A stretch of DNA of 45,506 bases from a virus (Duplodnaviria > Heunggongvirae > Uroviricota > Caudoviricetes), in the IMG/VR virus record IMGVR_UViG_2563366923_000008, positions 1 to 45,506 of that record, one strand, 5' to 3'. The position numbers and the translations under genes are program-made. The notes under the pieces are model-generated. The model was not told where the DNA came from, made no database searches, and was given only the letters and a program-made list of their open reading frames with translations. The stretch's first letter is position 1; the number at the start of each line of letters is the position of its first letter. Positions 16,648 through 43,846 of the stretch are shown here, in pieces.

Positions 16648-16784
16648 GCCGTGACGTTATCGAACGCATCCGCGACCGCTGGCAAAAGCTTCGCCTCCTG
16701 CGTAGCCGCGGCACCGTGCTGGTCGACTACAAAATATTACGCAATTTCGTCCGTATCTATAAGCGCCTGGGAGAAGCAGCATGA
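16644..16784 (+). CDS. Small protein (46 aa), YlcG-like position
   Basis: ATGA overlaps at both ends (rusA stop and Q start); [46 protein letters not shown]. Confidence 0.35.
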
Positions 16785-17470
16785 CAGCTCAATACTTGGA
16801 ATTTGTTCGCCAGCAGCTGATAGTGGCCACCGCCGATCTGAGTGGTGCGACGAAAGGGCAACTGGTAGCTTTTGCAGAGAACGCGCAATTTACCGCTACG
16901 GCGCGCAGCCGTGGCCGGAAGAAGGTGTATAGCGAGGTGAAGCAAAAAATGGTTAACCCGGATGGACCGCCGATGAGCGGCAGCCAGTCCCGCGCTAAGG
17001 GTTCCTCAATCGCTCTCGTTCTGCCCGTTGAATACTCGACAGCCAGCTGGCGCCGCGCCCTCCTGTCGCTGGAAGACCACCAGAAATCCTGGTTGCTGTG
17101 GAACTACAGCGACAATATCCGCTTTGAGTATCAGGTAGCGATAACACAGTGGGCATGGGAAGAATTCCGTGATCAACTCGGCGCTAAGAAAGTGGCCGGC
17201 AAGACGATGGAGCGGCTGAAGAAACTGATATGGCTGGCGGCACAGGACGTGAAAGCAGAGCTGGCGGGTAAGTATGTATATCAGCACCAGGACCTTGCAG
17301 CCCTGTGTGGCGTTAAGCCTGATAACTGGTGCCATAACTACGCTGATTACTGGCGGGCTATGTGCGCCATTTTTAAGCGGCTTGATAGCGACTCTCTTCT
17401 CTGTGCTGTGAGAACACGATCACAACAAAAAGCGACTTTTTCGCAGCAGGGTCTTGCAAAAGTCAATTAA
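16781..17470 (+). CDS. Putative late antiterminator Q
   Basis: 229 aa directly upstream of the PR'/tR' region and lysis cassette; call is mainly positional. Confidence 0.6.
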   Translation: MTAQYLEFVRQQLIVATADLSGATKGQLVAFAENAQFTATARSRGRKKVYSEVKQKMVNPDGPPMSGSQSRAKGSSIALVLPVEYSTASWRRALLSLEDHQKSWLLWNYSDNIRFEYQVAITQWAWEEFRDQLGAKKVAGKTMERLKKLIWLAAQDVKAELAGKYVYQHQDLAALCGVKPDNWCHNYADYWRAMCAIFKRLDSDSLLCAVRTRSQQKATFSQQGLAKVN

Positions 17471-30234: not shown

Positions 30235-30331
30235 TTTCCCCCACGGCTCTCCTGACGAATGCTTTAACTGGCAGGGGCTGGCTCGTTTAAATTTTTTGCC
30301 AGCTGCGGCTGGCACTATCAAGAGACTGAAT

Positions 30332-31381: not shown

Positions 31382-31382
31382 T

Positions 31383-31763
31383 ATGGCAAAACAACCTAAT
31401 ACCGGGCTGGCTGATGATCTGAATGCAGAAGGATCTGCCAAAGACGGCCTGAGCGTTGACAACCTGAATGCTGGCGATAACACCCAGGAAAAACAGCCTT
31501 TGAGCAAAACAGATGATGCCGAATTGTCTGTTGATGACGATGGTGGTGACGAAAAATCCGGAGACACTGAATCGCAGGAGTATGTGGTGTTGAAAGGGAA
31601 TTGCATTCGTCATGACGGGGAGATGTACCGCGAAAATATGCGCATCCCTGTAACCGGCAAAGATGCTGAGCGTCTTCTGCAGTCCGGCGTTATTGCTGAT
31701 GTTGATGTGCTTCGTAAGCGAGTTCTTGCTTCTCAGCCATCAGTTTCAGTTACGACAGGGTAA
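31383..31763 (+). CDS. Hypothetical head protein (FI-like position)
   Basis: 126 aa acidic protein right after the capsid gene. Confidence 0.45.
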   Translation: MAKQPNTGLADDLNAEGSAKDGLSVDNLNAGDNTQEKQPLSKTDDAELSVDDDGGDEKSGDTESQEYVVLKGNCIRHDGEMYRENMRIPVTGKDAERLLQSGVIADVDVLRKRVLASQPSVSVTTG

Positions 31764-31767
31764 TGAC

Positions 31768-32127
31768 ATGGGCGTGGACTGGGATTCTCATCTTCTGAGT
31801 CCGCTGCATGATGTCTTTGGCGATGAGCACGAGTACCGTCCACGTAACGGTACTCCTTTTACAATTAACGGGATTTTTGACCGTGGTTATGCGCAGGTTG
31901 CTGAAAACCTTGATGGCGATTCAGAAATTAACACCTCCAGCCCGATGTTGGGTGTGCGCGATGCTGAATTTCGCAAGCTGGGTAAATCGCAACCTGCTGT
32001 ATCTGACCGGGTATTTATAAAGACGGTCGGTGGTCACATCATCAATCAGTTATTTGTTGTGTCAAACGTCGAACCCGACAGTCATGGCGGATCTCGTCTT
32101 GTCCTCAATGTGGTAAAACCGCGATGA
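31768..32127 (+). CDS. Putative head-tail connector or head completion protein
   Basis: 119 aa; positional call. Confidence 0.45.
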   Translation: MGVDWDSHLLSPLHDVFGDEHEYRPRNGTPFTINGIFDRGYAQVAENLDGDSEINTSSPMLGVRDAEFRKLGKSQPAVSDRVFIKTVGGHIINQLFVVSNVEPDSHGGSRLVLNVVKPR

Positions 32128-32669
32128 ATTCAGCAGCGATACGGCAAATGGTTGTCACTGCACTAACCGGGACAACCAGCGCGGGCGACCGCGTATTCTC
32201 TCCACGCGACTGGTCAACTTCACCAGATATGTATCCTGTGTTGTTGGTTCAGACGCCTTTTGAACAGAAAAAATCACAGGGGCGTAATACCCCTGCTTTT
32301 ACCACCCTCACCACTGTCAGGATCACTGGGCGCGTTCAGGAGTATGACGGCGATACAGTGGATGATGGAGCCATGCGGGCAGAGCTGGCGCTTGAAAGCC
32401 TTCGCGAGCAGGTGGAGCGCGCGGTGATCAACAGCTACGAACTGACGCGGAATATTCAGAAATACGCGGAAGTTCGTTCAACCATCAATGTTGATTCAGA
32501 AGGAGAGGCCCATATGGGGCAGCTTCTTTTCGAGATCGACATAGAGCATTACCAGGGGCCGGAAGATTTTTATCCTGTCCAGTCGGTTCCCCTTGAGGGC
32601 ATGGATATTGCGGTCGATATGCCAGACGGCACAGTTAAACCGGGTATCAGCCTCAATCTTCAGGAGTAA
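32124..32669 (+). CDS. Putative tail completion or neck protein
   Basis: 181 aa; ATGA overlap; positional call. Confidence 0.45.
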   Translation: MNSAAIRQMVVTALTGTTSAGDRVFSPRDWSTSPDMYPVLLVQTPFEQKKSQGRNTPAFTTLTTVRITGRVQEYDGDTVDDGAMRAELALESLREQVERAVINSYELTRNIQKYAEVRSTINVDSEGEAHMGQLLFEIDIEHYQGPEDFYPVQSVPLEGMDIAVDMPDGTVKPGISLNLQE

Positions 32670-32672
32670 TCC

Positions 32673-32870
32673 ATGTTTGTTAAGCCGAACAACGGGCTCA
32701 GCGTTCGCTGCCCCGTCAAGGGCATCCCATTGCCTAAAGAGGGTGCTGAAGTACCTGACAATATTTTCTGGCGTCGCCGTCTGAGCGATGGGGACGTGAT
32801 CCTCTCTAAAAAGGATGAGGGCGCGCCAGAGAAACAATCATTACCTAAAAAAGCGGGAGAAAATGAATGA
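32673..32870 (+). CDS. Hypothetical small protein upstream of the sheath gene
   Basis: 65 aa ORF. Confidence 0.4.
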   Translation: MFVKPNNGLSVRCPVKGIPLPKEGAEVPDNIFWRRRLSDGDVILSKKDEGAPEKQSLPKKAGENE

Positions 32871-34369
32871 CCGTACCTTTCGCTCGTGTTCCCGATAACC
32901 TGCGGGTAGGGCTTTTCTTCGTTGAGTTTGATAACTCAATGGCGAATAACGCCACTGCCACGCAGCGCACCCTGCTTATCGGTGGGATGCTCAGTACCGG
33001 CTCAACCCCCCCTGGTATTCCGCAGCGAGTTTCCTCTTCGGATACCGTCGGTGAGCTGACAGGAAAAGGGGGAATTCTGCAGGCCATGATGGCGGCGTAT
33101 CAGAAAAATGATACCGCAGCCGAAGTCTGGATCCTGCCGCTGGAGGAAGACTCCGATTCCATGGTGGCTGCAACCGGCACCATTAAAGTGAGCAGCGCAC
33201 CGACGGCAACCGGAGTGATCTCCCTTTATATTGCTGGTGAGCGCATTCAGTTGACCGTTGTAGCAACAGATACGGTGGCAGCGATCGCCACCTCTCTGGC
33301 CGCGGCGATTAACGCAAAAACCACGCTACCTGTAACCGCAAGTGCGACTACGGATACCGTAACCCTGACCGCGAAGAATCTTGGTGCTACGGGTAATGGG
33401 ATCGACATTCGCCTGAACTTCCTCGGCTTACCTGGAGGCGAGTCCACACCTGCAGGCCTGGAACTGACGATTACTGCTATGTCTAACGGAGTCGGGGCTC
33501 CGGATATTACCGGCGAGCTGGCAAACCTGCAGGATCGGACATTCGATTTCATCATCAACCCTTACGACGATACAACCTCGTTGAATGTGATGAAGGAGTT
33601 CCTGTCAGACACTGGCGGTCGCTGGGCATGGGACAAGCAGCTTTATGGCCATTCCTTTGGTACCACCACCGGGACTTACGCCCAGCTCGGTACCAAAGGT
33701 GAGCTGCGCAATAACCAGCATGAGACCCTGCTGGGCGTAAATAAATCGCCGTCCCCTTCCTGGGCATGGTCTGCAGCTTACACCGGCGCAGCTGCGGTGA
33801 GTCTGCGTAATGACCCCGGCCGCCCGCTACAGTCGCTCGCTGTTCAGGGGGTGCTTGCGCCAGAACTGCAGGATCGCTTTGAGCTGACCGAGCGTAACAA
33901 TCTGCTGTACAGCGGCATTTCGACATTTACGGTCGATGACGATGGCACGGTGCGCATTGAAAACCTGATCACCACCTACCAGAAAAACAGCTATGGCGAT
34001 GCAGATGACAGTTATCTGGAAGTGGAGACGCTGTTCAGCCTGATGTTTGTGACCCGCTACCTGCGCACAGCGGTGACCAGCAAGTTTGGCCGTATGAAGC
34101 TTGCTGCGGATGGAACCCGATTTGCACCTGGCGCGGCGATCGTCACGCCAAACATTATCAAGGCCGATCAGATTGCCGAGTACCAGACTCTGGTATGGAA
34201 CGGTTATGCGCAGGATGCGGAGGCATTCGCAAAAAATATCATCGTCGAGCAGAACGCCAAAAATCCGAACCGCGTCGATGTGCTGTGGCCGGGAACCCTC
34301 ATGAACCAGTTGCGCATTTTCGCGCTGCTCAATCAGTTCCGCACTCGGGCTGAATCAACAGGAGCTTAA
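32867..34369 (+). CDS. Tail sheath protein (Mu gpL-like)
   Basis: 500 aa; MTVPFARVPDNLRVGLFFVEFDNS... and size typical of contractile-tail sheath proteins; followed by a tube gene. Confidence 0.8.
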   Translation: MTVPFARVPDNLRVGLFFVEFDNSMANNATATQRTLLIGGMLSTGSTPPGIPQRVSSSDTVGELTGKGGILQAMMAAYQKNDTAAEVWILPLEEDSDSMVAATGTIKVSSAPTATGVISLYIAGERIQLTVVATDTVAAIATSLAAAINAKTTLPVTASATTDTVTLTAKNLGATGNGIDIRLNFLGLPGGESTPAGLELTITAMSNGVGAPDITGELANLQDRTFDFIINPYDDTTSLNVMKEFLSDTGGRWAWDKQLYGHSFGTTTGTYAQLGTKGELRNNQHETLLGVNKSPSPSWAWSAAYTGAAAVSLRNDPGRPLQSLAVQGVLAPELQDRFELTERNNLLYSGISTFTVDDDGTVRIENLITTYQKNSYGDADDSYLEVETLFSLMFVTRYLRTAVTSKFGRMKLAADGTRFAPGAAIVTPNIIKADQIAEYQTLVWNGYAQDAEAFAKNIIVEQNAKNPNRVDVLWPGTLMNQLRIFALLNQFRTRAESTGA

Positions 34370-34372
34370 ACG

Positions 34373-34744
34373 ATGGCAGGTGATACTACTAACCGCCTGG
34401 CGGGAACCGCCTATGTCACTGTTAACGGTGTGACGGTAATGGTGGAGGGCTCGTTTAAATACCAGGCTGCCACCGTAAACCGTACCACCCTGACAGGGAT
34501 GGATGGTGTGCACGGATATAAGGAAAAACCTGTGGCGCCATACATTTCTGCCCGACTGCGTGACAGTGGCGGAACGAATGTGCAGGGCTTTAACCAGCAG
34601 ACGAACGTCAACGTGATCGCCGAGCTGGCTAACGGGAAAACTATCATTGGCCGTTCACTCTGGACGGTCAACGTCCAGGAAGTGGAAAGCGAAGATGCAG
34701 TATTTGATGTTCGCTGGGAAGGCCGCGACGTAACGGAGAACTAA
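34373..34744 (+). CDS. Tail tube protein
   Basis: 123 aa directly after the sheath gene. Confidence 0.7.
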   Translation: MAGDTTNRLAGTAYVTVNGVTVMVEGSFKYQAATVNRTTLTGMDGVHGYKEKPVAPYISARLRDSGGTNVQGFNQQTNVNVIAELANGKTIIGRSLWTVNVQEVESEDAVFDVRWEGRDVTEN

Positions 34745-34745
34745 G

Positions 34746-35024
34746 ATGGCTGAGATTGAACGCGTTAAAACCATTCCATTAACCGTAGCGCTGGATGATG
34801 CTGCGGAGAAGACCACTTATACGCAGCTGGAGCTGAAAGCACCCACGCTAAGCCAGGCTGAGCAGTTTTACGAGAAACAGGCTGCGTCAACGTCGCTCGC
34901 GGCGATGCGCCTGCTTATTGCGCTGGTTTCCGGTACGCGTGAAAGCGTACTGCAGCCGATGGATTTTCTCGACTTCCGTAAGTGTGAGGAGTATCTGCTC
35001 AGTTTTTTGACCTGGAAGCCCTGA
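34746..35024 (+). CDS. Tail assembly chaperone with predicted -1 frameshift extension to 35173
   Basis: Slippery heptamer T-TTT-TTG at 35003-35009 near the 3' end; the -1 frame stays open for 50 codons to TAA at 35171-35173, overlapping the tape-measure start. Confidence 0.6.
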   Translation: MAEIERVKTIPLTVALDDAAEKTTYTQLELKAPTLSQAEQFYEKQAASTSLAAMRLLIALVSGTRESVLQPMDFLDFRKCEEYLLSFLTWKP

Positions 35025-35165
35025 CAACCTGGCAGGAAATGGCCGCTGACGTCACCTTCTATTTCCGCTGGTCTGAGGACAGGGCGTGGGGAATGACCCG
35101 CGCCCGGCTGAAATGGTGGGTGGCGCAGGCATCCCGGATAAACAAGCTTAGGAAACCTGAAGACG

Positions 35166-37094
35166 ATGAGTAATTCTTTTGATTTTGAGCTGGTGGCCAG
35201 CGACCAGGTTAGCGAGGCTATAGACCGCATTAATGAGGCTGTCCGTGACCTGGAGCCGAAGCTAGATAAAACTAAAGAAGGGCTCAAGTTAGGCGGTCAG
35301 GAAACAGCCGACGGACTGAGCGGTTTTATTTCTCGCCTCGAGAATATGTCGAAGAGCGCGCGGGATAACGTGCAGTTTATTGGCGACATGGTTCCCCCAC
35401 TGAAAATGGTGGGGGAGCTCACGGGGAAGATGGGGGCGCTGGGGTTAGCCGGTGCTGCCGGCTACGGACTGAAACAGGTCGCTTATGGATTTCGGGAGGC
35501 ATCCCGTCAGGCCTATAATCTTGATGTCTCGGCAAAAAATGCGGGAATGCGCGTTGACGATTTTACCCGACTTTCCGGGGCAATGCGTATTCTTGGGGCA
35601 GACAGCGAGAGCGCTAATGCATCAATAGAAGGTATTTTCAAAGCATTCAATGAGGCTGCCAGTGGTAAAAACGAGGGGGTTATGGCAGCGATGGCGCAAA
35701 TTGGTGCTCAAATCCAAAAAAACAGCGATGGTTCAGTAAATACCCTTAAAACACTGGAGTCTATCGCAAAAATTTTTCCAACCTTGCGACCTGAACAGCA
35801 GAAGTCCGCCGCTGATGCACTTGGGCTGACGCCCGAATTGCTGGCGCTAATGCGTGACGGTGAGCGCATGAAAAAGCTGCTGGCGAAATCGGATGAATTT
35901 GGTCTGACTGTGGATCCGGCACTAAATCAGCAATTGAGTGAAGTGAACGGCACTATGAATGAGCTCAGCGCATCCTGGGATGGTCTGTGGCAACGTTCAA
36001 AAAACAAGGCACTTAAGACCATTCTTTCGGATGGTTCAGTCAAAGACGGCCTTGAAGGTGTTACCGATCTGTTCACTAATGGTGATTTTACTGGGCTGTC
36101 TCATGCTCTCGGTTTTATCAACAGCAATGATGCTGAGAAACTACGGCGCATTCAGAACGATAAGGAACTTTATAACAGCTTACCCCGCAGTGAACGTGGG
36201 CAGGTTGACGCGGGTTTCATGACTGATGCTGTAAGAAAGCGGTACGATGCGAATTACCGCGCGACCGATTCTGCGATTCAATTGCAGAATGACTTATCCG
36301 CTATCAGCCAGCCACAATCCAACGTTGCACGCGGCAATGTTCCTTACGGGGAAACAAGGAATAACGCAATTGGCTTCAGAAATAATAATCCCGGTAATTT
36401 GAGGGTTGCAGCAAACGCAACGGGTAAAAATGGCGGATTTTCTACCTTTGCGAATGATGCCGACGGAAGAACTGCAATGGCGAGACAGCTGATGTTGTAT
36501 GGTGACAGGGGGAATAATACTCTGGATGGGATTATTCATACCTATGCTCCGCAATCAGAGAATAATACTCGTGCATATATTGACTCCGTCTCAAAAGCCA
36601 CTGGATATGGAGCCAAAGAGCAAGTAAATCTGCACGATCCGGAAACATTAAAAACGATAATGGCAGCCATGATTAAACATGAGAATGGCGCACAACCTTA
36701 TACTGAGGAACAACTGCTAAACGCCATCCAGACCGCCATTACTGATGATCGGTGGTCAGGGAAGAGAAATCCGGATGTGCTGGCCCAGCAGCGGTATGAC
36801 ATTATCTCAGGTTCGCAAACTGGAAATCGTGACTCCAGCACTCTTAGTAACCCGAGTGATGAAACTGATATTCTCTCAGGCTCGCAGAACAGAAATCGGG
36901 AATCCATCATTCTGAGTGATACGGGTAAGAAAAGTGATGAAAGTGTACTCGGCGACAATCTGGCTAAGTCTCTTAAAGAGGCAATGTCAGAACAACCACT
37001 TAAGCTCGAAATCACAATGGTTAATGATAAGGGTGAGCGAAAAACCTATAATGCGGAAAATAATGGCAGAATAACAACGGCCATGAATTACTGA
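35166..37094 (+). CDS. Tail tape measure protein
   Basis: 642 aa, helical and Ala/Gly-rich, downstream of the frameshifted chaperone; C-terminal repeats (ISGSQTGNRDSS / LSGSQNRNRESI). Confidence 0.7.
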   Translation: MSNSFDFELVASDQVSEAIDRINEAVRDLEPKLDKTKEGLKLGGQETADGLSGFISRLENMSKSARDNVQFIGDMVPPLKMVGELTGKMGALGLAGAAGYGLKQVAYGFREASRQAYNLDVSAKNAGMRVDDFTRLSGAMRILGADSESANASIEGIFKAFNEAASGKNEGVMAAMAQIGAQIQKNSDGSVNTLKTLESIAKIFPTLRPEQQKSAADALGLTPELLALMRDGERMKKLLAKSDEFGLTVDPALNQQLSEVNGTMNELSASWDGLWQRSKNKALKTILSDGSVKDGLEGVTDLFTNGDFTGLSHALGFINSNDAEKLRRIQNDKELYNSLPRSERGQVDAGFMTDAVRKRYDANYRATDSAIQLQNDLSAISQPQSNVARGNVPYGETRNNAIGFRNNNPGNLRVAANATGKNGGFSTFANDADGRTAMARQLMLYGDRGNNTLDGIIHTYAPQSENNTRAYIDSVSKATGYGAKEQVNLHDPETLKTIMAAMIKHENGAQPYTEEQLLNAIQTAITDDRWSGKRNPDVLAQQRYDIISGSQTGNRDSSTLSNPSDETDILSGSQNRNRESIILSDTGKKSDESVLGDNLAKSLKEAMSEQPLKLEITMVNDKGERKTYNAENNGRITTAMNY

Positions 37095-37227
37095 TCACTG
37101 TCGTCATTTCGTTAAGGAAGAAGTTATGAATGAAAAAGTTTTTGGAGCAAAAGCCATTTAGACTCCAAAGGTTTTTGCGCTTGTTTACCTGGTAATTGGC
37201 ATTTTCCTCGTTTTTTCTGTTGTCTCA

Positions 37228-37374
37228 ATGAATTTCACGGCGATTACGATATCGGTGGTAAGTGCATTGCTTTTACGTGTGCTTTATGAGTTCCTAATGA
37301 ACTCATTCAAGGCGACTGAGCATCTTTACAGGATCGCCGAATCTCTTGACCGTAATGGATCCAGCGATAAATAG
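37228..37374 (+). CDS. Possible small membrane protein (48 aa) inserted between tape-measure and baseplate genes
   Basis: MNFTAITISVVSALLLRVLYEFLMNSFKATEHLYRIAESLDRNGSSDK; AT-rich; followed by a strong terminator; no clear SD. Confidence 0.25.
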   Translation: MNFTAITISVVSALLLRVLYEFLMNSFKATEHLYRIAESLDRNGSSDK

Positions 37375-37397
37375 ATAAGTCATTTCAGTGCATATGT

Positions 37398-37423
37398 AAA
37401 CCGCCGACATGGCGGTTTTTTTA
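37398..37423 (+). terminator. Rho-independent terminator inside the tail operon
   Basis: AAACCGCC-gacat-GGCGGTTT followed by TTTTTTT. Confidence 0.55.
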
Positions 37424-37437
37424 TTTCCGGAGGCGTG

Positions 37438-38841
37438 ATGCCGTCAATTATCCAGGACGCAATAACTTCTCTTTTGGGGGGAGATACCAGCGATGACTGG
37501 CAGGGGCAGTTACGGCCCAGCTCATTCAGAGGTGTGCCATTTGCAATTGTTGCTGAGGAAGGGAGCCACGGCCGACGCCAGGCGGTACATGAATATCCCT
37601 ACCGTGATACAGCCTGGATAGAGGATATCGGGCGGGCAACACGGCGATTTGTTATTCGCGGTTTCTTGATCCAGAACAGCCAGGTTTACGGCGGCGGCGA
37701 TGCTATCACGCAGCGCCAGTCACTGATTGAAGCCTGTGAACAAAAAGGTAGCGGTACGCTTGTCCATCCGACACTGGGCGAATTAACGGTTTCCATCCCT
37801 GAGAATGGTTTGCGTATTTCCGGTTCGATGGAGAACGGGCGAGTATTTGAATTTACCCTGATGGCAATTGAATCAGGGCTTAAAGTGTTTGCTGTCACGG
37901 GCAGTACCGTTGCAGGCGCCACGGTGAAAACCAACTATCTGAAACTGGTCAGCACTGCTGTGCTGAGCACGATTGCCAGAGTTAAGAGTGAAATCCGCGG
38001 TGTCACACAGGCTATAAACACCATCAGAGGCACGGTCACGTTCTGGACTAACATGGTTGACAGCACCATCAGTCAGGTCACGAATCTCAGCAATGTCCTG
38101 AACTCCACGTTCGGGAATACCCGGTACGGACGTTACAGTAAAGGCTCTGTGGGCGGTAGTTCCTCTGCTGTTGCTGGCAAATCGTCAGTTGCTGATGTGG
38201 ATGATGAGAGAGCACTGGCTGACAAGGTAACAGCCCAGTCGGTAATGGACCGGAAAAATGTTACCGACAGGTCGAGCCAGCTTAGCAGCTCCAACACACC
38301 TGATGAGTTTGTCCAGGGCGTCGCCGACGTGGTAAACGCAATTCTTAACAGCGCCGGCAGCGTTAATGACCGAATCACAGCGCTGGAAAAACTGGCTAAT
38401 TCAATCAGCACGGAGTACCAGCAGTCCGACAGCAGCAAAGCGATTTCGGCGACCATGAACACGCTGATTGTTGTGCTATGTACTGGTGCCATGACCAGTG
38501 CCGCTGCGGACTCCAGACCAGCCAGTACAGACGAGGCAGAAGAGTTAACTCAACGAGTTTCTGTGCAACTTGATACGGCGCTGGTTCTGGCTGGAGACCG
38601 CGCAGACGATGATATGTATAACGCGCTTCTCGCCGTCAGATCGGCATTCCTTTCTACGATGAGTGAGCGTGCTTCTGGTCTGAGCGAGCTTCTGCAGGTT
38701 ACTACCGCTCAGCCGCTTCCGGCGCTGACGCTGGCAAACCGATTATACCAGGATGCCACCCGTGCAGATGAACTGGTACAGGAAGCGCGCGTACCGCATC
38801 CGGCGTTTATGCCGACAACCATGAAGGTACTGAGGCAATGA
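37438..38841 (+). CDS. Mu gpN-like DNA circulation protein
   Basis: 468 aa; ATG at 37438 with GGAGG SD (track start 37435 is GTG); position after the tape measure in a Mu-like tail module. Confidence 0.65.
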   Translation: MPSIIQDAITSLLGGDTSDDWQGQLRPSSFRGVPFAIVAEEGSHGRRQAVHEYPYRDTAWIEDIGRATRRFVIRGFLIQNSQVYGGGDAITQRQSLIEACEQKGSGTLVHPTLGELTVSIPENGLRISGSMENGRVFEFTLMAIESGLKVFAVTGSTVAGATVKTNYLKLVSTAVLSTIARVKSEIRGVTQAINTIRGTVTFWTNMVDSTISQVTNLSNVLNSTFGNTRYGRYSKGSVGGSSSAVAGKSSVADVDDERALADKVTAQSVMDRKNVTDRSSQLSSSNTPDEFVQGVADVVNAILNSAGSVNDRITALEKLANSISTEYQQSDSSKAISATMNTLIVVLCTGAMTSAAADSRPASTDEAEELTQRVSVQLDTALVLAGDRADDDMYNALLAVRSAFLSTMSERASGLSELLQVTTAQPLPALTLANRLYQDATRADELVQEARVPHPAFMPTTMKVLRQ

Positions 38842-39923
38842 ATGCAGACAGCGATCTGGATGTTGTTTCTTTGACGGTCGACGGCAAAATCATCGAGGGG
38901 TGGGATTCTGTCCGGGTAACGCGGGGTATTGAGCGTTTTCCCTCTGATTTCGATCTTGGGCTAATGGATTACTTCCCTGGCAACGAAGATCGTCAACTCG
39001 TTGAAGAGGGAATGTCTTGTGAAGTTCGTATCGGAGATGATCTGACACTGACGGGATATGTTGATGACTGGGAACCCGCACTATCGCGCTCCCGCCATGA
39101 GGTCCGCGCCACGGGCAGGAGCAAATGTCAGGACCTGGTGGATTGCTCAGCCGAGTGGCCTAACAACGTCATCAATGCCAGTAATGCGCTTGAAATTGCT
39201 TCTCGCCTGGCATCCTACTACGGCATCACCGTAACCACGGATGTTGATGAACTTGTGAAGGTACCCCAGTTCACTCTGAACTGGGGTGAGTCTCCGCAAG
39301 AAGTCATCGATCGGGTGGCCAGATGGTCTGCTCTGCTTTACTACGATCAGCCCGATGGAAACCTGTTACTGACCCGGGTGGGAACACGTCGTGCGGCAAG
39401 TGGGATAGCCGAAGGGGTAAATGTCGAGCAGGCATACTACCGCAAATCGATGGCTGACAGGTTTTCAGATTATGTCGGTGTATCAATGAGCGTTTCTCCA
39501 ATTGCAGGGTATTCGCCTGATACGGCCTATGACGCTGTGACTCTGGCAACGGCGAGAGATCCGGAGGCCGCCCGCATGCGGTACCGAAAACATATATCGA
39601 TTGTGGAAAGTACCCTGATGGCTACTCAACAGGCACAAAGTGCGATCGACTGGGAAATGAACCGGCGGTACGGACGTTCAAAACAGCTCTCGGTAACCAT
39701 CGATTCCTGGCGGGATAAAGACGGGAAACTGTGGGAACCAAACACATTGATCCCCGTTGATCTTCCCACCTTACGGTTGCCGAAGACTGAATTGCTACTG
39801 GCAGAAGTCACCTATATGCGCGATGACTACGGCACCCATGCACGCATGACGCTGATGCCGCCTGAAGCATTCTCCGTTCAGCCATATGCCTTCTACCAGA
39901 ACCTGGCGGGATTCAATACATGA
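38838..39923 (+). CDS. Baseplate hub protein (Mu gpP / gpD-like)
   Basis: 361 aa; ATGA overlap; positional and size match. Confidence 0.6.
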   Translation: MNADSDLDVVSLTVDGKIIEGWDSVRVTRGIERFPSDFDLGLMDYFPGNEDRQLVEEGMSCEVRIGDDLTLTGYVDDWEPALSRSRHEVRATGRSKCQDLVDCSAEWPNNVINASNALEIASRLASYYGITVTTDVDELVKVPQFTLNWGESPQEVIDRVARWSALLYYDQPDGNLLLTRVGTRRAASGIAEGVNVEQAYYRKSMADRFSDYVGVSMSVSPIAGYSPDTAYDAVTLATARDPEAARMRYRKHISIVESTLMATQQAQSAIDWEMNRRYGRSKQLSVTIDSWRDKDGKLWEPNTLIPVDLPTLRLPKTELLLAEVTYMRDDYGTHARMTLMPPEAFSVQPYAFYQNLAGFNT

Positions 39924-40504
39924 AGCAACTATTTAAACATGCAGCGACCAGGATCGCCGGCATGCTGGGGATTGGCCGGATCACGGCTATGAAAGATGGT
40001 GGGGTGGTGCAGTCTATCCAGTACCAGACTCCGCTGGAGGTGGCCAGCGCTCCGCGGATGGCAGAATTTGGCTTTTCATCCGGCCTGCCGTCAGGGACTG
40101 ACGTGGTTCTGGCTTTTATTGGCGGTGATCGTTCCAGCGCGGTGGTAATTGCGTCCAACCATCAGGGGTTCCGTCATACAGGCCTGAAAGCGGGCGAAAC
40201 GGTCATGTATAACCAGTGGGGCCTTAATATTCTCCTGACGGAGAAGGGGATCTTCCTGGATGCAAAGGGCCAGAATGTTGAGGTCAATAACGCCACTAAC
40301 GTGACCATCAATGCCAGCCAGGGGATCCTTGCAAATACCCCGATCCTGAGGTGCACGGGTGACATTGTTGATAACTGTGAAACCAATACCCGAACACTGA
40401 AAGAGCTGCGGGATGCACATAATGACCATGATCATGTGGTTAAAAATGCCCAGAGTGGCAATGACAATATCCGCAGCCAAAAAACAGAGGATCAGGTGAC
40501 ATGA
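39920..40504 (+). CDS. Baseplate assembly/spike protein (gpV-like)
   Basis: 194 aa; positional call. Confidence 0.6.
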   Translation: MKQLFKHAATRIAGMLGIGRITAMKDGGVVQSIQYQTPLEVASAPRMAEFGFSSGLPSGTDVVLAFIGGDRSSAVVIASNHQGFRHTGLKAGETVMYNQWGLNILLTEKGIFLDAKGQNVEVNNATNVTINASQGILANTPILRCTGDIVDNCETNTRTLKELRDAHNDHDHVVKNAQSGNDNIRSQKTEDQVT

Positions 40505-40938
40505 GTGACATCGCTTCATTCTGGAATGTGGATGAGATGTTTGCTGACTGGCAGAAAGGGCTGGGTGAACTCACCACGGGGAACGATTTACAGACTGCAA
40601 TACTGGACAGCCTGTTTACCGACAGGCTGGCGCGCGCTGACGATGATTATGAGGATAGCGATCGCCGCGGCTGGTGGGGGGATTCCGGGGAGGAATCCCA
40701 ACTGGGATCCCGGCTGTGGCTGCTACGGCGGAAAAAACTGACCCCGGATGTAGCAAAAAAAGCGGAGGAATACTCGAGTGAAGCGCTCAACTGGTTAAAG
40801 GTTGATGGCGTTGTCAGCGAGGTTATTCCTGTTGCAAGGATCGTCCTGCCTGACCGGCTCAATCTCATTATCCGCTATCAGGCACCGGGGAAGGACTGGC
40901 AGGAATTCAGGTTTTACTGGATATGGGAGCAACGTTAA
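40501..40938 (+). CDS. Baseplate protein (gp25/GPW-like)
   Basis: 145 aa; positional call. Confidence 0.55.
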   Translation: MSDIASFWNVDEMFADWQKGLGELTTGNDLQTAILDSLFTDRLARADDDYEDSDRRGWWGDSGEESQLGSRLWLLRRKKLTPDVAKKAEEYSSEALNWLKVDGVVSEVIPVARIVLPDRLNLIIRYQAPGKDWQEFRFYWIWEQR

Positions 40939-40939
40939 T

Positions 40940-42082
40940 ATGCCGTTTAAACGACCGACGCTGAGCGAACTCCGCGACGGAAACCGGAAATTTATGCAGG
41001 CGGAGCTTGAGGATGTTGGTGCGCTCCTGCGCTTCGCGAACCTGAAGGTACTGGCTGACATGGATGCGGGGATGGGGCATCTGCATTACGCCTACCTTGA
41101 CTATATTGCCCTGCAGACAAACCCGTTTACCTCTACCGATGAGTATCTCGCCGGGTGGATGGCCCTTAAGCAGGTATTCAGAAAACCAGCTGCAGCGGCG
41201 AAGTCGCCTGCGGTACAGGCTAGTGGCAGTGTTGACTGTATTATCCCTGTTGGCTCGATCATTAACCGCGGGGACGGATACCAGTACCGGACGGATGCAG
41301 ATCTTAAAATTCAGGCAGATGGATTTGGTATCGTCGCGGTGACGGCCATACTGCCGGATATTACCAGTGATGTAACGGGTGGAGGCGCGCGCGGTAACGC
41401 TGATGCCGGGACCATAATGACCCTGGACGCGAATATTGCTGGCGTGGATCCACAGGTAACGTTACTGTCCGCTGCGACCGGCGGAGCCGATATTGAAACG
41501 GAAGAGGATTTTCGCAGTCGTGGCTTGCTGGCATGGCAGAATCCGCCTCAGGGTGGAAGCGACGCCGATTATAAAAAATGGGCGCTTGAGGTTTCGGGCG
41601 TCACCCGCGCGTGGGTAAAGCGGCGTCTGAACGGGGCCGGGACCGTTGGCGTGTATATCATGTGTGATCGGAATGACAATGGTGGGTTTCCGGTCGGTAC
41701 CGACGGAATATCCCAACTTGAGGACTGGGGGGCTGTTAAAGCCACCGGAGACCAGCTCGCTGTCGCCGACCACATCTATCCGCAGCAGACAGACACTGCC
41801 ATTGTTTTCGTATGTTCCCCGATCAAGAAAGTCATCAATATTGAAATCTCTGGGATCAAAAATGCCGACAGCACCACAGTTCAGGGGATAAAAGACGCGC
41901 TGACGGCGCTGTTTTTTGATGAAGCTAACCCTGATGGTTCCGGGAAAGTTTACCTCTCTGATATTAACGGGAGTATCGGCGGTGTTAGCGGCACGACGGG
42001 CTATATTCTTAACTCTCCGACGGCCAATATCACCTTTGCTGTTGGCGAAATTCCGGTGCTTGGCGGGGTGAATTTTGTATGA
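40940..42082 (+). CDS. Baseplate J-like protein
   Basis: 380 aa; ATG at 40940 directly after the upstream TAA; size and position fit baseplate J. Confidence 0.7.
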   Translation: MPFKRPTLSELRDGNRKFMQAELEDVGALLRFANLKVLADMDAGMGHLHYAYLDYIALQTNPFTSTDEYLAGWMALKQVFRKPAAAAKSPAVQASGSVDCIIPVGSIINRGDGYQYRTDADLKIQADGFGIVAVTAILPDITSDVTGGGARGNADAGTIMTLDANIAGVDPQVTLLSAATGGADIETEEDFRSRGLLAWQNPPQGGSDADYKKWALEVSGVTRAWVKRRLNGAGTVGVYIMCDRNDNGGFPVGTDGISQLEDWGAVKATGDQLAVADHIYPQQTDTAIVFVCSPIKKVINIEISGIKNADSTTVQGIKDALTALFFDEANPDGSGKVYLSDINGSIGGVSGTTGYILNSPTANITFAVGEIPVLGGVNFV

Positions 42083-42672
42083 GCCTCTTTTCAAAAAATG
42101 ATTATGCCGGTGCGCTTGGTGCGCTGCTACCGACGGGCAGGGCGTGGCCCCGGTCGCAAAGAACGGTACAGGCTGCGGTATTACGGGCACTGGGCAGCGC
42201 GTTTCAGCGTTCTGACAACGATGCGCAAAGCCTGATTACTGGTGCTTTTCCCCCTACAGCGACGGTAATGTTGTCAGAATGGGAAAGCTCTCTGGGGTTA
42301 CCAGATGATTGTGCGATTGGTGAATCCGGTGGCGTCAGCGATCGCCAGCGCGCCGTGGTGGCAAAGTTAATCAGCACCGGCGGCCTGAACCGCGATTATT
42401 ACATCCGGGTGGCTGCAGCTCTTGGTTATACCATCACTATCACACAGTTCCGGCCCGCTATGAGTGGCATGTCAGTATGCGGTGATGCGCTTAACGGTGA
42501 CGAGTGGCCATTTACCTGGCGGATAAATGCGCCACAAACAACGATCAAGTATTCGCTTGCTGGCGCGTCCTACTGCGGAGATCCGCTCGCATCGTGGGGC
42601 AATAAACAACTGGAGTGTTCAATCAACAAAATTGCCCCATCCCATCTGAACATCATTTTCAATTATTCATAA
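42079..42672 (+). CDS. Tail protein (Mu gp48-like)
   Basis: 197 aa; ATGA overlap with J. Confidence 0.55.
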   Translation: MSLFSKNDYAGALGALLPTGRAWPRSQRTVQAAVLRALGSAFQRSDNDAQSLITGAFPPTATVMLSEWESSLGLPDDCAIGESGGVSDRQRAVVAKLISTGGLNRDYYIRVAAALGYTITITQFRPAMSGMSVCGDALNGDEWPFTWRINAPQTTIKYSLAGASYCGDPLASWGNKQLECSINKIAPSHLNIIFNYS

Positions 42673-42723
42673 CTGATATTTCCCCCTCTGATTTTATCGC
42701 TTAACACTAAGTGAGGATTAACT

Positions 42724-43398
42724 ATGCTCCGAATCGGGCAAGTCGAAGCCACTGCAACGCAGGATGGCAAATATACTGATGGAAGTGTTGCTGGTGGTAT
42801 TGCCGCAACGAGGCTGCGGGCAGCAGCGTTTAATGCCATGCAGGAAGAGTTAGCGCATATCGTAGAGTCAGCAGGATTGGCGCTCGACATTAACGATATG
42901 ACTCAGGTTTTAAAAGCCATTCAAAAACTCACACTGAGCCGTGCAAACCCATTTGCCGATATCAAATCAGATGGTGCAGCGGCGATTTCTACGGCTCTCA
43001 CAAACCTTGGTTTGGGAGAAGCGGCAACGAGGAACGTCGGAACGGGTACCGGCCAAGTACCAGATATGAGCAGTTTTACAACGGGGCACTCTGGAGCAGC
43101 AGACTGGCCGATTCCTAAATCTGGATGGAGTAAGGGGCCGGATGGGGTAATTACACAATGGGGTACTTTCGGTTTCCCCGTTGGACAGACAGGGACGAAT
43201 GTTGTTTTCCCGCTACCTTTCCCCGCGCGGGTCGAATCAATTACACTGACAATGGCAGATATCCAGGAGTCTCTGCTTTCTCCAGCAACCATGCCTGCTT
43301 ATGGAGTTAACTCAACTGGTACTTCAAGAACGGGTTTTACAGCCCGTATGTCAGGCGCCGGTGGGTTTAATCTTTGCTATATAGCGAAAGGGAGATAA
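42724..43398 (+). CDS. Tail fibre protein (constant N-terminus plus variable C-terminus, currently expressed orientation)
   Basis: N-terminal MLRIGQVEATATQDGKYTDGSVAGGIAATRLRAAAFNAMQEE typical of fibre N-termini; inversion crossover site inside the gene at about codon 95. Confidence 0.7.
   Translation: MLRIGQVEATATQDGKYTDGSVAGGIAATRLRAAAFNAMQEELAHIVESAGLALDINDMTQVLKAIQKLTLSRANPFADIKSDGAAAISTALTNLGLGEAATRNVGTGTGQVPDMSSFTTGHSGAADWPIPKSGWSKGPDGVITQWGTFGFPVGQTGTNVVFPLPFPARVESITLTMADIQESLLSPATMPAYGVNSTGTSRTGFTARMSGAGGFNLCYIAKGR
42995..43020. promoter_or_regulatory. Left gix/hix-like inversion crossover site
   Basis: CTCTCACAAACC-TT-GGTTTGGGAGAA; shares the half-site GGTTTGGGAGAA with the inverted copy at 44873-44898. 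Confidence 0.6.
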
Positions 43399-43402
43399 CA
43401 GA

Positions 43403-43846
43403 ATGAATAAAGTTAAAAGTGTTTACAGCCCGTCCGAAAATGCAATCTACAACGCAGCGCTATATGAAAGTTATATCAAGGAGGGGACATGGCCGCAGGA
43501 TGGTATTGAAATCAGCGATGAGGATGCTGTCAGATTTAATGGGGGAAATAAGCCAACAGGAAAAATGCTGGGAATGGTTTCAGGGACCCTTGCATGGGTT
43601 GATGAGCCGCCGCTTTCACCAGAACAGAAAATATCAGATGCAGAAAACATGAAAGCCACATTTCGTGCAAAAGCTGACAGTGAAATATCCTGGCGTCAGG
43701 ATGCTGTTGATGCTGGTATCGCAACTGATGAAGAAACTTCAACTCTCACCCAATGGAAGAAATACCGTGTGCTGCTGATGCGTGTTGATACGTCAACAGC
43801 ACCCGATATTGAATGGCCTACGCCTCCGGCAGCTCAGGCCAGATGA
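43403..43846 (+). CDS. Tail fibre assembly protein (Tfa)
   Basis: 147 aa; C-terminal ...TSTAPDIEWPTPP motif shared with the opposite-strand Tfa'. Confidence 0.7.
   Translation: MNKVKSVYSPSENAIYNAALYESYIKEGTWPQDGIEISDEDAVRFNGGNKPTGKMLGMVSGTLAWVDEPPLSPEQKISDAENMKATFRAKADSEISWRQDAVDAGIATDEETSTLTQWKKYRVLLMRVDTSTAPDIEWPTPPAAQAR

What the first reader, a model, noticed from the sequence alone, without database searches (positions are those of the whole stretch)
37100..37437. Terminator-bounded AT-rich insert between tape-measure and baseplate genes
A strong intrinsic terminator (37398-37423) and a possible 48-aa hydrophobic ORF interrupt an otherwise tightly coupled tail operon. The downstream tail genes then need read-through or a new promoter. 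This is an unusual place for a terminator and a possible small moron.
Basis: seen in the sequence. Interest (0 to 1): 0.35.

Follow-up and report, generated by a model that had tools for sequence, protein, structure and literature searches.

The report
Amber-broken membrane gene before conserved terminator
The AT-rich spacer in this E. coli prophage tail operon holds a small accessory membrane-protein gene, broken here by one stop codon, lying just upstream of a transcription terminator that related phages carry even without the gene; it is an ordinary phage "moron"-type add-on.

Summary
In detail: a 343-nt low-GC spacer (37095-37437) lies between the tape-measure gene and the Mu gp43-like DNA_circ/baseplate-hub gene, and ends in a strong hairpin plus U-tract (37398-37426). 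The interpretation needs two corrections.

1. The 48-aa ORF is the 3' remnant of an 82-codon gene (37126-37374, good SD) for a two-helix, DUF4282-like membrane protein. One amber codon (TAG, 37159-37161) interrupts it where relatives have Trp (TGG). This amber allele is the common one: 21 of 22 complete E. coli genomes and about 24 of 31 viral contigs. Inside that lineage the frame has been restored twice, by TAG>TAT (Tyr12) and by a +T insertion that brings an overlapping ATG into frame.

2. The terminator does not belong to the insert. Cargo-free relatives (phiNP, BZS1, SfV, ST64B, YeP1) have the same hairpin, U-tract and SD directly after their tape-measure stop codons. All 11 stems differ and show compensatory changes. 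The gene sits exactly between the TMP stop and this older terminator.

The phage encodes Q (16781-17470), so lytic read-through is the expected solution. The layout mirrors the HK97 gp15 moron, but the proteins are not homologous. Function (superinfection exclusion?) is inferred only. Verdict: new member of a known kind, modest interest.

The parts
16781..17470 (+). Q antiterminator gene. It is the context that explains read-through of the tail-operon terminator.
   Evidence: PF06323 Phage_antiter_Q, 268 bits. A PR'-like site at 17530-17557 is followed by a tR'-like terminator at 17559-17581.
35166..37094 (+). Tape-measure protein gene (642 aa) with a lytic-transglycosylase-like region. Its stop codon is the upstream boundary of the insert.
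   Evidence: phrog_2276, E 1e-155. The C-terminus GRITTAMNY* is homologous to the last residue with cargo-free phiNP (GRISMPMFY*).
37024..37052 (+). Sigma-70 promoter-like site (ATGATA-17-TATAAT) inside the TMP 3' end. It is a candidate promoter for the small gene and is unproven.
   Evidence: 10 of 12 matches. It scores in the top 2% of 101 200-nt windows in the structural block. Cargo-free relatives score at background, and the HK97 gp15 control scores 8 against 10 here. It lies in coding sequence, so its conservation is not independent evidence.
37114..37120 (+). Shine-Dalgarno sequence AAGGAAG of the small gene.
   Evidence: Read from the sequence; it lies 5 nt before the ATG at 37126.
37126..37374 (+). 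82-codon gene for a DUF4282-like two-helix membrane protein. In this window an amber codon at codon 12 disrupts it.
   Evidence: Translation. The intact 82-aa CDS WP_023157309.1 is annotated at the same place in NCTC9040. Homologues of 79-83 aa occur at the same locus. omega is about 0.1-0.2. The AF2 model is a helical hairpin with pLDDT 81.
37159..37161 (+). In-frame TAG. Relatives have TGG (Trp12, ancestral) or TAT (Tyr12, derived).
   Evidence: Asn59 is linked only to the TAG and TAT alleles.
37130..37195 (+). Overlapping alternative-frame ORF (21 aa) starting at ATG 37130. In T6 alleles of relatives it becomes the start of a full-length 81-aa protein.
   Evidence: for the frames. L004-L006 and L048 carry TAG plus T6.
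37172..37176 (+). T5 run. It is T6 in the frame-restoring alleles.
37228..37374 (+). It is the 3' remnant of the gene, has no SD, and Met35 is not conserved.
37398..37426 (+). Intrinsic terminator: an 8-9 bp GC-rich hairpin (37398-37418) plus a U-tract. It is ancestral to the tail module.
   Evidence: It is invariant in 33 of 33 close loci. The same structure is present in cargo-free phiNP, BZS1, SfV, ST64B and YeP1.
37429..37433 (+). SD GGAGG of the DNA_circ gene, directly after the U-tract.
   Evidence: Read from the sequence. The stem end lies 15-22 nt before the ATG in the 10 junctions measured; SfV was not measured.
37438..38841 (+). DNA_circ_N / Mu gp43-like baseplate-hub gene. It is the first gene downstream of the terminator.
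   Evidence: PF07157, 105 bits; phrog_184 baseplate hub; RefSeq start.

Best explanation
The spacer is a cargo slot at a conserved terminator inside the Mu/SfV-type contractile-tail module of a Q-dependent lambdoid E. coli prophage. It has two separable layers.

(1) An ancestral intrinsic terminator (37398-37426) abuts the SD of the gp43-like gene. In lytic growth, Q-modified RNA polymerase coming from PR' is expected to read through it. That makes the baseplate genes strictly Q-dependent. Without Q, the terminator stops any transcription entering from upstream, including transcription of the cargo (inferred).

(2) An 82-codon gene (37126-37374) with its own strong SD is inserted exactly between the TMP stop codon and that terminator. 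It probably also has its own sigma-70 promoter in the TMP 3' end. It encodes a DUF4282-like helical-hairpin inner-membrane protein, probably with both termini in the cytoplasm. My best guess for its function rests only on position and layout, by analogy with HK97 gp15: a prophage-expressed accessory protein that interferes with DNA entry by incoming phages (superinfection exclusion).

In this window the gene carries TGG>TAG at codon 12. It therefore yields an 11-residue peptide and, at most, traces of read-through product. It is a null or strongly hypomorphic allele. This amber allele is the majority form in E. coli. Relatives have restored it twice (TAG>TAT, and +T with the alternative ATG), which argues that the protein is useful when it is made.

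Shown: the anatomy, the alleles, the conservation and the cargo-free junctions. Inferred: Q read-through, promoter use, topology and function.
For: Gene and amber codon:
- The in-frame TAG is shown. The intact annotated orthologue differs by 1 nt in 371.
- Trp12 occurs in the intact close homologues and in most diverged ones; Citrobacter P0012 has Leu. TGG is confirmed at DNA level in L007-L010 and L020.
- There is no suppressor tRNA in the window.

Allele survey:
- 21 of 22 complete E. coli genomes carry TAG/T5.
- Over the 50 sequences classified (the window plus 49 loci): 28 TAG/T5, 4 TAT, 4 TAG/T6, 5 TGG. Asn59 is linked only to TAG and TAT.
- The Tyr12 protein occurs on 134 contigs.
- Only 1.1% of substitutions and 13.7% of +1 insertions would restore the frame.

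Real protein-coding family:
- The gene sits at the same locus in modules whose DNA_circ is 72-80% identical.
- pN is about 0.3 against saturated pS.
- It matches phrog_12129 at 6e-11. Profile links reach proteins that pass the DUF4282 threshold.
- The AF2 model is a helical hairpin and the protein is hydrophobic over residues 16-51.

Insert is extra DNA: phiNP and BZS1 have only 33-36 nt between TMP and DNA_circ.

Terminator is ancestral and selected:
- All 11 junctions have a perfect 7-12 bp stem plus a U-tract. In the 10 junctions measured, the stem ends 15-22 nt before the ATG.
- The 11 stems are all distinct and show compensatory changes.
- Unrelated cargo ORFs in AH07 and L017 occupy the same slot.

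Autonomy: in L062 the homologue lies in the same slot but on the opposite strand, with a promoter-like site upstream. The window's promoter-like site scores in the top 2%.

Q context: Q is encoded in the window, in phiNP and in SfV.

Precedent: HK97 gp15, followed by a terminator and then 12 nt to the next tail gene. gp15 is a small inner-membrane exclusion protein (PMC3594210).
Against: - No expression data exist. The promoter is only a consensus match inside coding sequence, and strict scans find no + strand promoter upstream of the gene in L011, L014 or L015.
- With only 31 nt after the TMP stop and a strong SD, the gene could simply be co-transcribed late.
- The protein is not homologous to gp15 and hits nothing in PADLOC, so the exclusion function is pure analogy.
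- The amber allele dominates in E. coli, and all ORF variants within that lineage are non-synonymous. Both facts fit a dispensable, decaying gene as well as anything else.
- The lineage is too young to separate decay from constraint: 0.175% divergence in the ORF plus UTR against 0.169% in DNA_circ (from the counts).
- The T6 allele was first found through a protein database, which introduces ascertainment bias, although L048 confirms it in the unbiased set.
- phiP27 is lambdoid but lacks the terminator, so the link between terminator and Q is not strict.
Confidence: 0.62

Rival explanations
1. The small gene is not a lysogeny-expressed moron. It is a late gene co-transcribed with the tape-measure gene and acts during morphogenesis or infection, for example by handling the hydrophobic TMP or the inner membrane at assembly, injection or lysis.
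For: - It lies upstream of the operon's terminator rather than downstream of it, only 31 nt after the TMP stop, and has a strong SD.
- The TMP-to-DUF4282 adjacency recurs in the distant Edwardsiella phage GF-2, where the two genes abut.
- The small protein has diverged about as much as the TMP, which indicates long co-residence.
- Strict promoter scans are negative in three relatives.
Against: - In L062 the homologue is on the opposite strand to the tail genes.
- The gene is absent from phiNP, BZS1, SfV and ST64B, which have the same tail module.
- The amber allele is the majority form in E. coli prophages.
- True DUF4282 members occur in non-phage chromosomal contexts.
- The 5' regions of 91-108 nt in L013 and L015 are longer than coupling would need.
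Confidence: 0.2
2. The amber allele is not a null. The protein is still made at useful levels by stop-codon read-through, by reinitiation at Met35 (the 48-aa product the first reader saw), or by a frameshift from the overlapping ATG. On this view the TAG acts as an expression throttle or on/off switch.
For: - The TAG allele is widespread and the spacer is otherwise very well conserved; the 3'UTR is invariant in 33 loci.
- The base after the TAG is A, a context known to favour UAG misreading (my own knowledge, Bossi 1983).
- The 48-aa remnant retains the most conserved part of the protein, LRVLYEFLM.SFKATEHLYRIAE.
- An ATG in the alternative frame reads across the TAG.
Against: - There is no SD before ATG 37228, and Met35 is not conserved in distant homologues.
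- There is no X XXY YYZ slippery heptamer between 37162 and 37193, and a T5 run is too short for transcriptional slippage (sequence).
- The window has no tRNA genes.
- All changes inside the amber lineage are non-synonymous, and one of them removes the stop codon.
- The existence of frame-restoring alleles implies that the amber form is not equivalent to the intact gene.
Confidence: 0.1
3. The main role of the terminator hairpin is quantitative. Even with Q present it partly attenuates transcription or stabilises the upstream mRNA 3' end, and so sets high sheath, tube and TMP expression against low baseplate expression. This is compatible with the best explanation and differs only in emphasis.
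For: - The hairpin is conserved by structure at exactly this junction whether or not cargo is present, in 11 lineages with compensatory changes.
- It is the only strong terminator in the 20-kb structural block.
- It separates genes needed in many copies (sheath, tube) from genes needed in few copies (baseplate).
- HK97's record likewise has putative terminators after the major tail gene and after gp15.
Against: - There are no transcript data.
- Mu, phiAP1 and phiP27 assemble the same kind of tail without the hairpin.
- Q-modified polymerase is generally terminator-resistant (established lambda knowledge).
Confidence: 0.3
4. The whole 340-nt block, including the terminator, is a single recently acquired moron cassette (promoter, 48-aa gene, terminator).
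For: The block has low GC, and the layout of a gene followed by a terminator resembles HK97 gp15.
Against: - Cargo-free relatives keep a homologous hairpin, U-tract and SD directly after the TMP stop.
- The gene has co-diverged with the module down to 54-60% identity, so it is an old resident.
- The 48-aa ORF is a fragment of a longer gene.
Confidence: 0.04

Closest known systems
HK97 gp15 moron (Juhala et al. 2000; Cumby et al. 2012; reviewed in PMC3594210)
   Same: - It is a small inner-membrane protein gene inserted between two conserved tail genes, next to the tape-measure gene.
- Its GC content is lower than its neighbours'.
- It is followed at once by an intrinsic terminator that ends about 12-20 nt before the next tail gene.
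- The host phage is Q-dependent.
   Different: - There is no sequence homology (hhalign probability 0.9%).
- gp15 is 62 aa with one TM helix and belongs to the YebO family. This protein is 82 aa with two helices and is DUF4282-like.
- gp15 lies upstream of the TMP gene, whereas this gene lies downstream.
- Here the terminator predates the insert.
- The copy in this window is inactivated by an amber codon.
- An exclusion function has been demonstrated for gp15 and is untested here.
Pfam PF14110 (DUF4282), small integral membrane proteins of unknown function
   Same: - The length (about 80 aa), the two hydrophobic helices and the motif order (..TPK.. TM1 TM2 R..(Y/F)E..M..FK..E(H/Y)L.RIA.) all match.
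- The family profile retrieves proteins that pass the DUF4282 threshold.
- UniRef labels the Tyr12 protein DUF4282.
   Different: - The window-clade protein scores below Pfam's gathering threshold (22.1 bits against 27).
- Typical members carry FKNNEYLRRI rather than FKATEHLYRI.
- At least one typical member is chromosomal and not phage-associated.
- No function is known for the family, and the searchable library holds no paper that mentions it.
Mu gp42-gp43 (Y/N) junction and the SfV-type tail module
   Same: The gene order is the same: sheath, tube, chaperone, TMP, DNA_circ (gp43), gp44, gp45, gp46, gp47.
   Different: - Mu has 4 nt and no hairpin between gp42 and gp43.
- SfV, ST64B, YeP1, phiNP and BZS1 have the hairpin but no cargo.
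- The window clade has both the hairpin and the cargo.
- The stretch of SfV's record I read (9176-14568, which spans this junction) lists no terminator feature there, although the record annotates putative terminators elsewhere.
Edwardsiella phage GF-2 ORF-19
   Same: It is a DUF4282 protein (31.9 bits), 33% identical to this one. It is encoded immediately after the TMP/lytic tail protein gene and is followed at once by a hairpin plus T7.
   Different: The tail module is distant. The gene abuts the TMP stop with no gap. An Arc/Ant regulatory module, not the baseplate genes, follows the terminator.

Membership tests
Moron (Hendrix/Juhala definition, as restated in PMC3594210) | Extra DNA between two genes that are adjacent in related phages | tested here: met
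   phiNP has 33 nt, BZS1 36 nt, ST64B 33 nt and SfV 45 nt between TMP and DNA_circ, against 343 nt here. The TMP C-terminus is homologous to the last residue.
Moron (Hendrix/Juhala definition, as restated in PMC3594210) | Nucleotide composition differs from the flanking genes | tested here: met
   GC is 0.41 against 0.46 and 0.53 in the flanks. In diverged relatives the spacer is 0.32-0.36 against 0.39-0.54 in the flanks. Part of this may simply reflect the T-rich codons of a membrane protein.
Moron (Hendrix/Juhala definition, as restated in PMC3594210) | Own promoter | tested here: inconclusive
   The ATGATA-17-TATAAT site at 37024-37052 scores in the top 2% of the structural block, above the gp15 control. 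However, it lies in TMP coding sequence, and strict scans are negative in L011, L014 and L015. The opposite-strand copy in L062 must have its own promoter.
Moron (Hendrix/Juhala definition, as restated in PMC3594210) | Own terminator | tested here: inconclusive
   A strong terminator follows the gene. It is homologous to the one that cargo-free relatives already have at this junction, so the gene uses a terminator it did not bring with it.
Moron (Hendrix/Juhala definition, as restated in PMC3594210) | Expressed from the repressed prophage | not testable with these tools
   This needs a transcriptome or a reporter in a lysogen.
Pfam PF14110 DUF4282 | Score at or above the gathering threshold of 27 bits | tested here: not met
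   The score is 22.1 bits at E 2.3e-4 for the restored window protein. The relatives GF-2 ORF19, P0020 and P0025 pass with 31.9-40.8 bits, and the clade profile reaches them at E 1e-8 to 1e-6. The protein is therefore best described as a divergent branch below the threshold.
HK97 gp15 / YebO family | Sequence homology to gp15 | tested here: not met
   hhalign probability is 0.9% over 8 aligned columns.
Intrinsic (Rho-independent) terminator | GC-rich stem of 5 or more bp, loop of 3-8 nt, U-tract immediately 3' | tested here: met
   The stem has 8-9 bp with 5 GC pairs, the loop is 3-5 nt, the tail is U7AU3, and dG is about -12 kcal/mol.
Intrinsic (Rho-independent) terminator | Structure maintained by selection (compensatory changes among homologues) | tested here: met
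   All 11 junctions form perfect stems, and the 11 sequences are all distinct. G-C changes to A-U at position 2, and C-G to U-A at position 3. The alignment was anchored by hand on each sequence's own fold, because MAFFT put the long stems in the wrong register.
Intrinsic (Rho-independent) terminator | Terminates transcription, and is read through by Q-modified polymerase | not testable with these tools
   This needs in vitro transcription or Term-seq, with and without Q.
Programmed recoding site (stop read-through or -1 frameshift) | Slippery heptamer or stimulatory element, a suppressor tRNA, and conservation of the stop codon among homologues | tested here: not met
   There is no X XXY YYZ motif between the TAG and the alternative-frame stop and no tRNA gene. 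The stop codon is absent from every homologue outside one young lineage.
Known anti-phage defence proteins (PADLOC-DB) | Match to a defence-system HMM | tested here: not met
   There is no hit for the restored window protein or for P0012. P0009 has only a weak Csx18 hit (E 0.003, 15.7 bits), which is hydrophobic-helix noise.

The most novel reading that the evidence does not exclude
DUF4282-like proteins that sit next to the tape-measure gene are a new family of inner-membrane superinfection-exclusion, or injection-modulating, factors matched to the neighbouring tape-measure protein. Their expression is switched off and on in natural populations by nonsense mutation and reversion (TGG>TAG>TAT, or a +T frameshift onto an overlapping start) under fluctuating selection. 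The conserved hairpin at the TMP|gp43 junction would be a general attenuator that sets tail-to-baseplate stoichiometry in Q-dependent myoviruses.
Probability: 0.12. Interest if true: 0.55.

Novelty: new member of a known kind. Interest (0 to 1): 0.3.

Why it matters
- **Annotation:** RefSeq leaves this spacer empty in all 21 complete E. coli genomes that carry the amber allele. It should be marked as a pseudogene of the WP_023157309-type DUF4282 protein.
- **Phage genome architecture:** The case shows that what looks like a moron with its own terminator can be a gene dropped in front of an existing terminator inside the operon. The TMP|gp43 junction of SfV-type tails is a reusable cargo slot: three unrelated cargos are seen there, and one copy is inverted.
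- **Function discovery:** It offers a small, tractable candidate with natural null (TAG), ancestral (Trp12) and restored (Tyr12, T6) alleles. These are ready-made controls for testing whether DUF4282 proteins protect lysogens.

None of this changes current concepts.

Tried and rejected
- **Close phage matches:** A megablast of the region against 50,697 phage records found nothing. A distant search found only the DNA_circ flank.
- **Source genome:** No single E. coli genome holds the whole window. The early region is mosaic.
- **Rfam:** Nothing reached a gathering score. The best match was an Aggregatibacter sRNA at 29 bits against 51, which is simply the terminator.
- **Suppressor tRNA:** None in the window.
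- **Protein libraries:** PADLOC, NCBIfam and PDB sequence searches gave nothing significant, only TM-helix noise.
- **Fold search:** A Foldseek search of the AF2 model against BFVD returned only generic helical hairpins (E 0.27 or worse), so I did not pursue it.
- **Literature:** There is no paper on DUF4282. The phiNP paper does not mention terminators or morons. The SfV and HK97 gp15 primary papers are not held.
- **Species-representative genomes:** Only one locus was found.
- **MAFFT covariation test:** I dropped the column-based test of the hairpin because the long stems were aligned in the wrong register. I replaced it with a per-sequence fold table.
- **TMP diversity:** The ungapped estimate (pi 0.27) is an artefact of indels and I discarded it.
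- **Decay versus constraint:** Comparing diversity in the ORF and in DNA_circ within the amber lineage was inconclusive.
- **L045/L050:** An apparent deletion of the terminator turned out to be a lost stop codon (TAG>CAG) that had misled my script.
- **Rejected readings:** the 48-aa ORF as a gene; a terminator imported with the insert; programmed frameshifting.
Full report
**What is at the coordinates.** The window is a mosaic lambdoid E. coli prophage. It has a Q antiterminator (16781-17470; PF06323, 268 bits), lambda-type head genes and a Mu/SfV-type contractile tail. Its late region (23608-43021) is 99.4% identical to a prophage of E. coli ECONIH4. The tape-measure gene ends at 37094 (phrog_2276, E 1e-155). 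The next tail gene starts at ATG 37438 and is a DNA_circ_N/Mu gp43-like baseplate hub (PF07157, 105 bits). The 343 nt between them have GC 0.41, against 0.46 and 0.53 in the flanks. The spacer ends in the hairpin AAACCGCCG-ACA-TGGCGGTTT (37398-37418) followed by U7AU3. This is the only strong + strand terminator in the roughly 20-kb structural block. The other strong ones cluster between Q and the terminase genes and include a PR'/tR'-like pair at 17530-17581.

**The ORF is larger than reported and is broken.** The 48-aa ORF (37228-37374) is in frame with an ATG at 37126 that is preceded by AAGGAAG. The 82-codon frame has a single stop, TAG, at 37159-37161. In E. coli NCTC9040 the same 371 nt differ at one base: TAT (Tyr) replaces TAG, and RefSeq annotates an 82-aa protein, WP_023157309.1. 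A protein search found homologues of 79-83 aa in Enterobacter, Citrobacter, E. coli and metagenomes. The intact close homologues and most diverged ones have Trp at position 12; Citrobacter P0012 has Leu. The DNA of L007-L010 shows TGG at this codon. The window allele is therefore a TGG>TAG nonsense mutation. ATG 37228 has no SD, and Met35 is not conserved in distant homologues. The window has no tRNA gene. There is no slippery heptamer between the TAG and the stop of the overlapping frame. I conclude that this copy is a null allele or a very leaky one.

**Alleles in nature.** Among complete E. coli genomes, 21 of 22 copies carry exactly the window's TAG/T5 sequence, and RefSeq annotates nothing there. 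The 31 IMG/VR contigs were found by tblastn and are therefore independent of gene calling. Among them, about 24 are TAG/T5, 3 are TAT, 1 is TAG/T6 and 1 is TGG. Asn59 occurs only with TAG or TAT, and Thr59 only with TGG. The TAT haplotype is otherwise identical to the major TAG haplotype. The parsimonious order is therefore TGG>TAG>TAT.

A second rescue exists. L004-L006 (Enterobacter) and L048 keep the TAG but have T6 instead of T5 at 37172-37176. This puts the overlapping ATG at 37130 in frame and gives an 81-aa protein with a different N-terminus, MKKFLEQKPFRLQRF... I predicted this change from the protein sequence of P0006 and then confirmed it in the DNA. The Tyr12 protein occurs on 134 contigs. 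Only 1.1% of point substitutions and 13.7% of +1 insertions would restore the frame. Seeing both among about six mutational events has a probability of roughly 1% under neutrality. That is suggestive of selection for the intact protein, although homopolymer indels are mutational hot spots. The other variants within the amber lineage are F27Y, F27C, T64S and one loss of the stop codon. All are non-synonymous, as expected under relaxed constraint. Overall divergence in the ORF plus UTR equals that of the neighbouring gene (0.175% against 0.169%, from the counts), so the lineage is too young to tell decay from constraint.

**The protein.** The family is under purifying selection: pN is about 0.3 while pS is saturated, and omega is about 0.1-0.2 where it can be calculated. 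The most conserved part is LRVLYEFLM.SFKATEHLYRIAE. AlphaFold gives a helical hairpin with helices at residues 3-34 and 37-76 and a mean pLDDT of 81. Residues 16-51 are hydrophobic, the turn (SMNF) is short and uncharged, and the N-terminus is net positive. I infer a topology with both termini in the cytoplasm. The protein scores 22.1 bits on Pfam DUF4282, below the threshold of 27, and 6e-11 on phrog_12129, a family of unknown function. A profile of the clade retrieves only 25 representatives among 1.84 billion proteins. These share the motifs ..LITPK.. and FKNNEYLRRIAE and do pass the DUF4282 threshold. One of them lies in an ordinary chromosomal context. PADLOC, NCBIfam, PDB and BFVD searches gave nothing meaningful. 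No paper in the searchable library mentions DUF4282.

**The insert is extra DNA, but the terminator is not part of it.** Homologues occupy the same slot in tail modules whose DNA_circ proteins are 72-80% identical to the window's. The small proteins themselves are 54-60% identical, about as diverged as the TMPs, so the gene is an old resident. The closest sequenced phages are Citrobacter phiNP (DNA_circ 68% identical) and Serratia BZS1 (51%). They have the same gene order with only 33-36 nt between TMP and DNA_circ and no small gene. Those 33-36 nt nevertheless consist of a GC hairpin, a U-tract and the SD. The same holds for SfV, ST64B and YeP1. It also holds for Pantoea phage AH07, where an unrelated 164-aa ORF sits between the TMP stop and the hairpin. 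L017 has an additional 188-aa ORF in the slot. GF-2 has its DUF4282 gene followed by a hairpin right after its TMP.

All 11 junctions fold into perfect stems of 7-12 bp. In the 10 junctions measured, the stem ends 15-22 nt before the ATG. The 11 stem sequences are all different and include compensatory changes, G-C to A-U and C-G to U-A. Mu, phiAP1 and phiP27 lack the hairpin. The window's TMP C-terminus is homologous to phiNP's up to the stop codon. The cargo therefore lies exactly between the TMP stop and a terminator that predates it.

**How it most likely works.**
- *Shown:* the anatomy, the alleles and the conservation.
- *Inferred from the lambda/HK97 paradigm:* late transcription starts at PR' just downstream of Q and is made terminator-resistant by Q. 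The hairpin at 37398 is therefore read through in lytic growth, and the baseplate genes have no promoter of their own because there is no room for one. phiNP and SfV, which keep the hairpin, also encode Q. Without Q, the hairpin ends any transcript coming from upstream, including a cargo transcript. Whether it also attenuates transcription or stabilises mRNA when Q is present cannot be decided here.
- *Cargo expression:* the ATGATA-17-TATAAT site at 37024-37052 is in the top 2% of the structural block and scores higher than the upstream region of the gp15 positive control. Cargo-free relatives score at background. In L062 the homologue lies in the same slot on the opposite strand, with its own AT-rich upstream region. 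Both points favour an autonomous, moron-type unit. However, strict promoter scans are negative in three relatives, so late co-transcription remains a live rival.
- *Function:* the closest precedent is HK97 gp15. It is a small inner-membrane protein encoded beside the TMP gene and followed by a terminator 12 nt before the next tail gene, and it blocks DNA entry by superinfecting phages (PMC3594210). gp15 is not homologous to this protein, so I offer exclusion as the most likely function with low confidence.

**Comparison and verdict.** The region meets two of the moron criteria, extra DNA and distinct composition. The promoter criterion is inconclusive, and the terminator criterion is met only in the sense that the gene uses a terminator it did not bring. 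The protein is a divergent DUF4282-like protein that falls below the Pfam threshold. It belongs neither to the gp15/YebO family nor to any known defence family. The region is not a recoding site. This is a new member of a known kind, a moron-type accessory gene at a terminator inside the late operon, present here as a natural amber pseudogene. The points worth keeping are:
- the corrected annotation;
- the finding that the terminator is a conserved and apparently undescribed feature of SfV-type tail modules that defines a reusable cargo slot;
- the natural allelic series (Trp12, amber, Tyr12, T6), which would make a functional test easy.

Interest is modest, at 0.3.

Noticed in passing
L062 3001-3246 (GCA_022712525.1 contig JALAGG010000100.1): The next-closest homologue (P0017, 81 aa) occupies the same TMP|DNA_circ slot but on the opposite strand to the tail genes. 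The arm nearest DNA_circ looks like half of the usual hairpin (GGCGGGTT), which suggests an inversion with a breakpoint inside the terminator.
   Followed up: partly
L017 3375-3941; L058 (Pantoea phage AH07) 155-649: Unrelated extra ORFs of 188 aa and 164 aa occupy the same slot between the TMP stop and the conserved hairpin. They have no Pfam or PADLOC hits (the 188-aa ORF) and no NCBIfam hit (the 164-aa ORF). AH07's ORF has an SD (AAGGAAGAA) very similar to the window's.
   Followed up: partly
window 37205 (codon 27 of the small gene): The same base has changed twice within the amber lineage: T>A (F27Y, 6 loci) and T>G (F27C, 2 loci). Tyr27 also occurs in a Trp12 Enterobacter homologue (P0005). 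This is either a hot spot or a selected site, and it is odd for a supposedly silent pseudogene.
   Followed up: no
L045 and L050 (same IMG/VR genome 2744054990), equivalent to window 37372: The small gene's stop codon has mutated from TAG to CAG, so the frame runs on through the terminator. Two contigs of one genome carry the same variant, so that genome has two copies of the prophage.
   Followed up: partly
E. coli NCTC9040 (NZ_LR134247.1); second place in the record; protein P0007: This strain has two copies of the region. The other copy encodes a Tyr12 protein whose middle part is frameshifted by two compensating indels in homopolymer runs. These may be errors of the long-read assembly. The TMP is also split into two CDSs in this record.
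   Followed up: no
window 43696-44886 compared with L018 43007-44191: The tail-fibre and fibre-assembly segment matches ECONIH4 in reverse orientation (87-94% identity), next to a recombinase-family gene. This looks like an invertible host-range segment of the Mu G/Gin type, caught in the opposite orientation.
   Followed up: no
window 17530-17581, 17897-17916, 20337-20358, 21675-21692: A PR'-like promoter (ATGATA-16-TAAAAT) is followed immediately by a strong terminator just downstream of Q, which is the lambda 6S/tR' layout. Three more strong + strand terminators lie between Q and the terminase genes, a region likely to hold further moron-type cassettes.
   Followed up: no
L054 (SfV NC_003444.1) 2465-2490: The annotated ATG of SfV orf15 (DNA circularization) lies inside the U-tract of the conserved hairpin. 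By comparison with YeP1 and AH07, the true start is probably after the downstream GGAG. The stretch of the SfV record I read, which spans this junction, lists no terminator feature there, although the record annotates terminators elsewhere.
   Followed up: partly
L051 (Edwardsiella phage GF-2) 4917-6825: After the TMP, DUF4282 gene and terminator unit, GF-2 carries an Arc-like repressor and Ant antirepressor module (like P22 immI) before the baseplate genes. The same junction therefore hosts regulatory cargo in that phage.
   Followed up: no
window 35166-37094 (residues about 390-560 of the TMP): The tape-measure protein contains a lytic-transglycosylase-like region (phrog_873 and phrog_7182 hits; PF01464 SLT in the L014, L015 and L017 orthologues). 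It is annotated only as a hypothetical protein in RefSeq.
   Followed up: no
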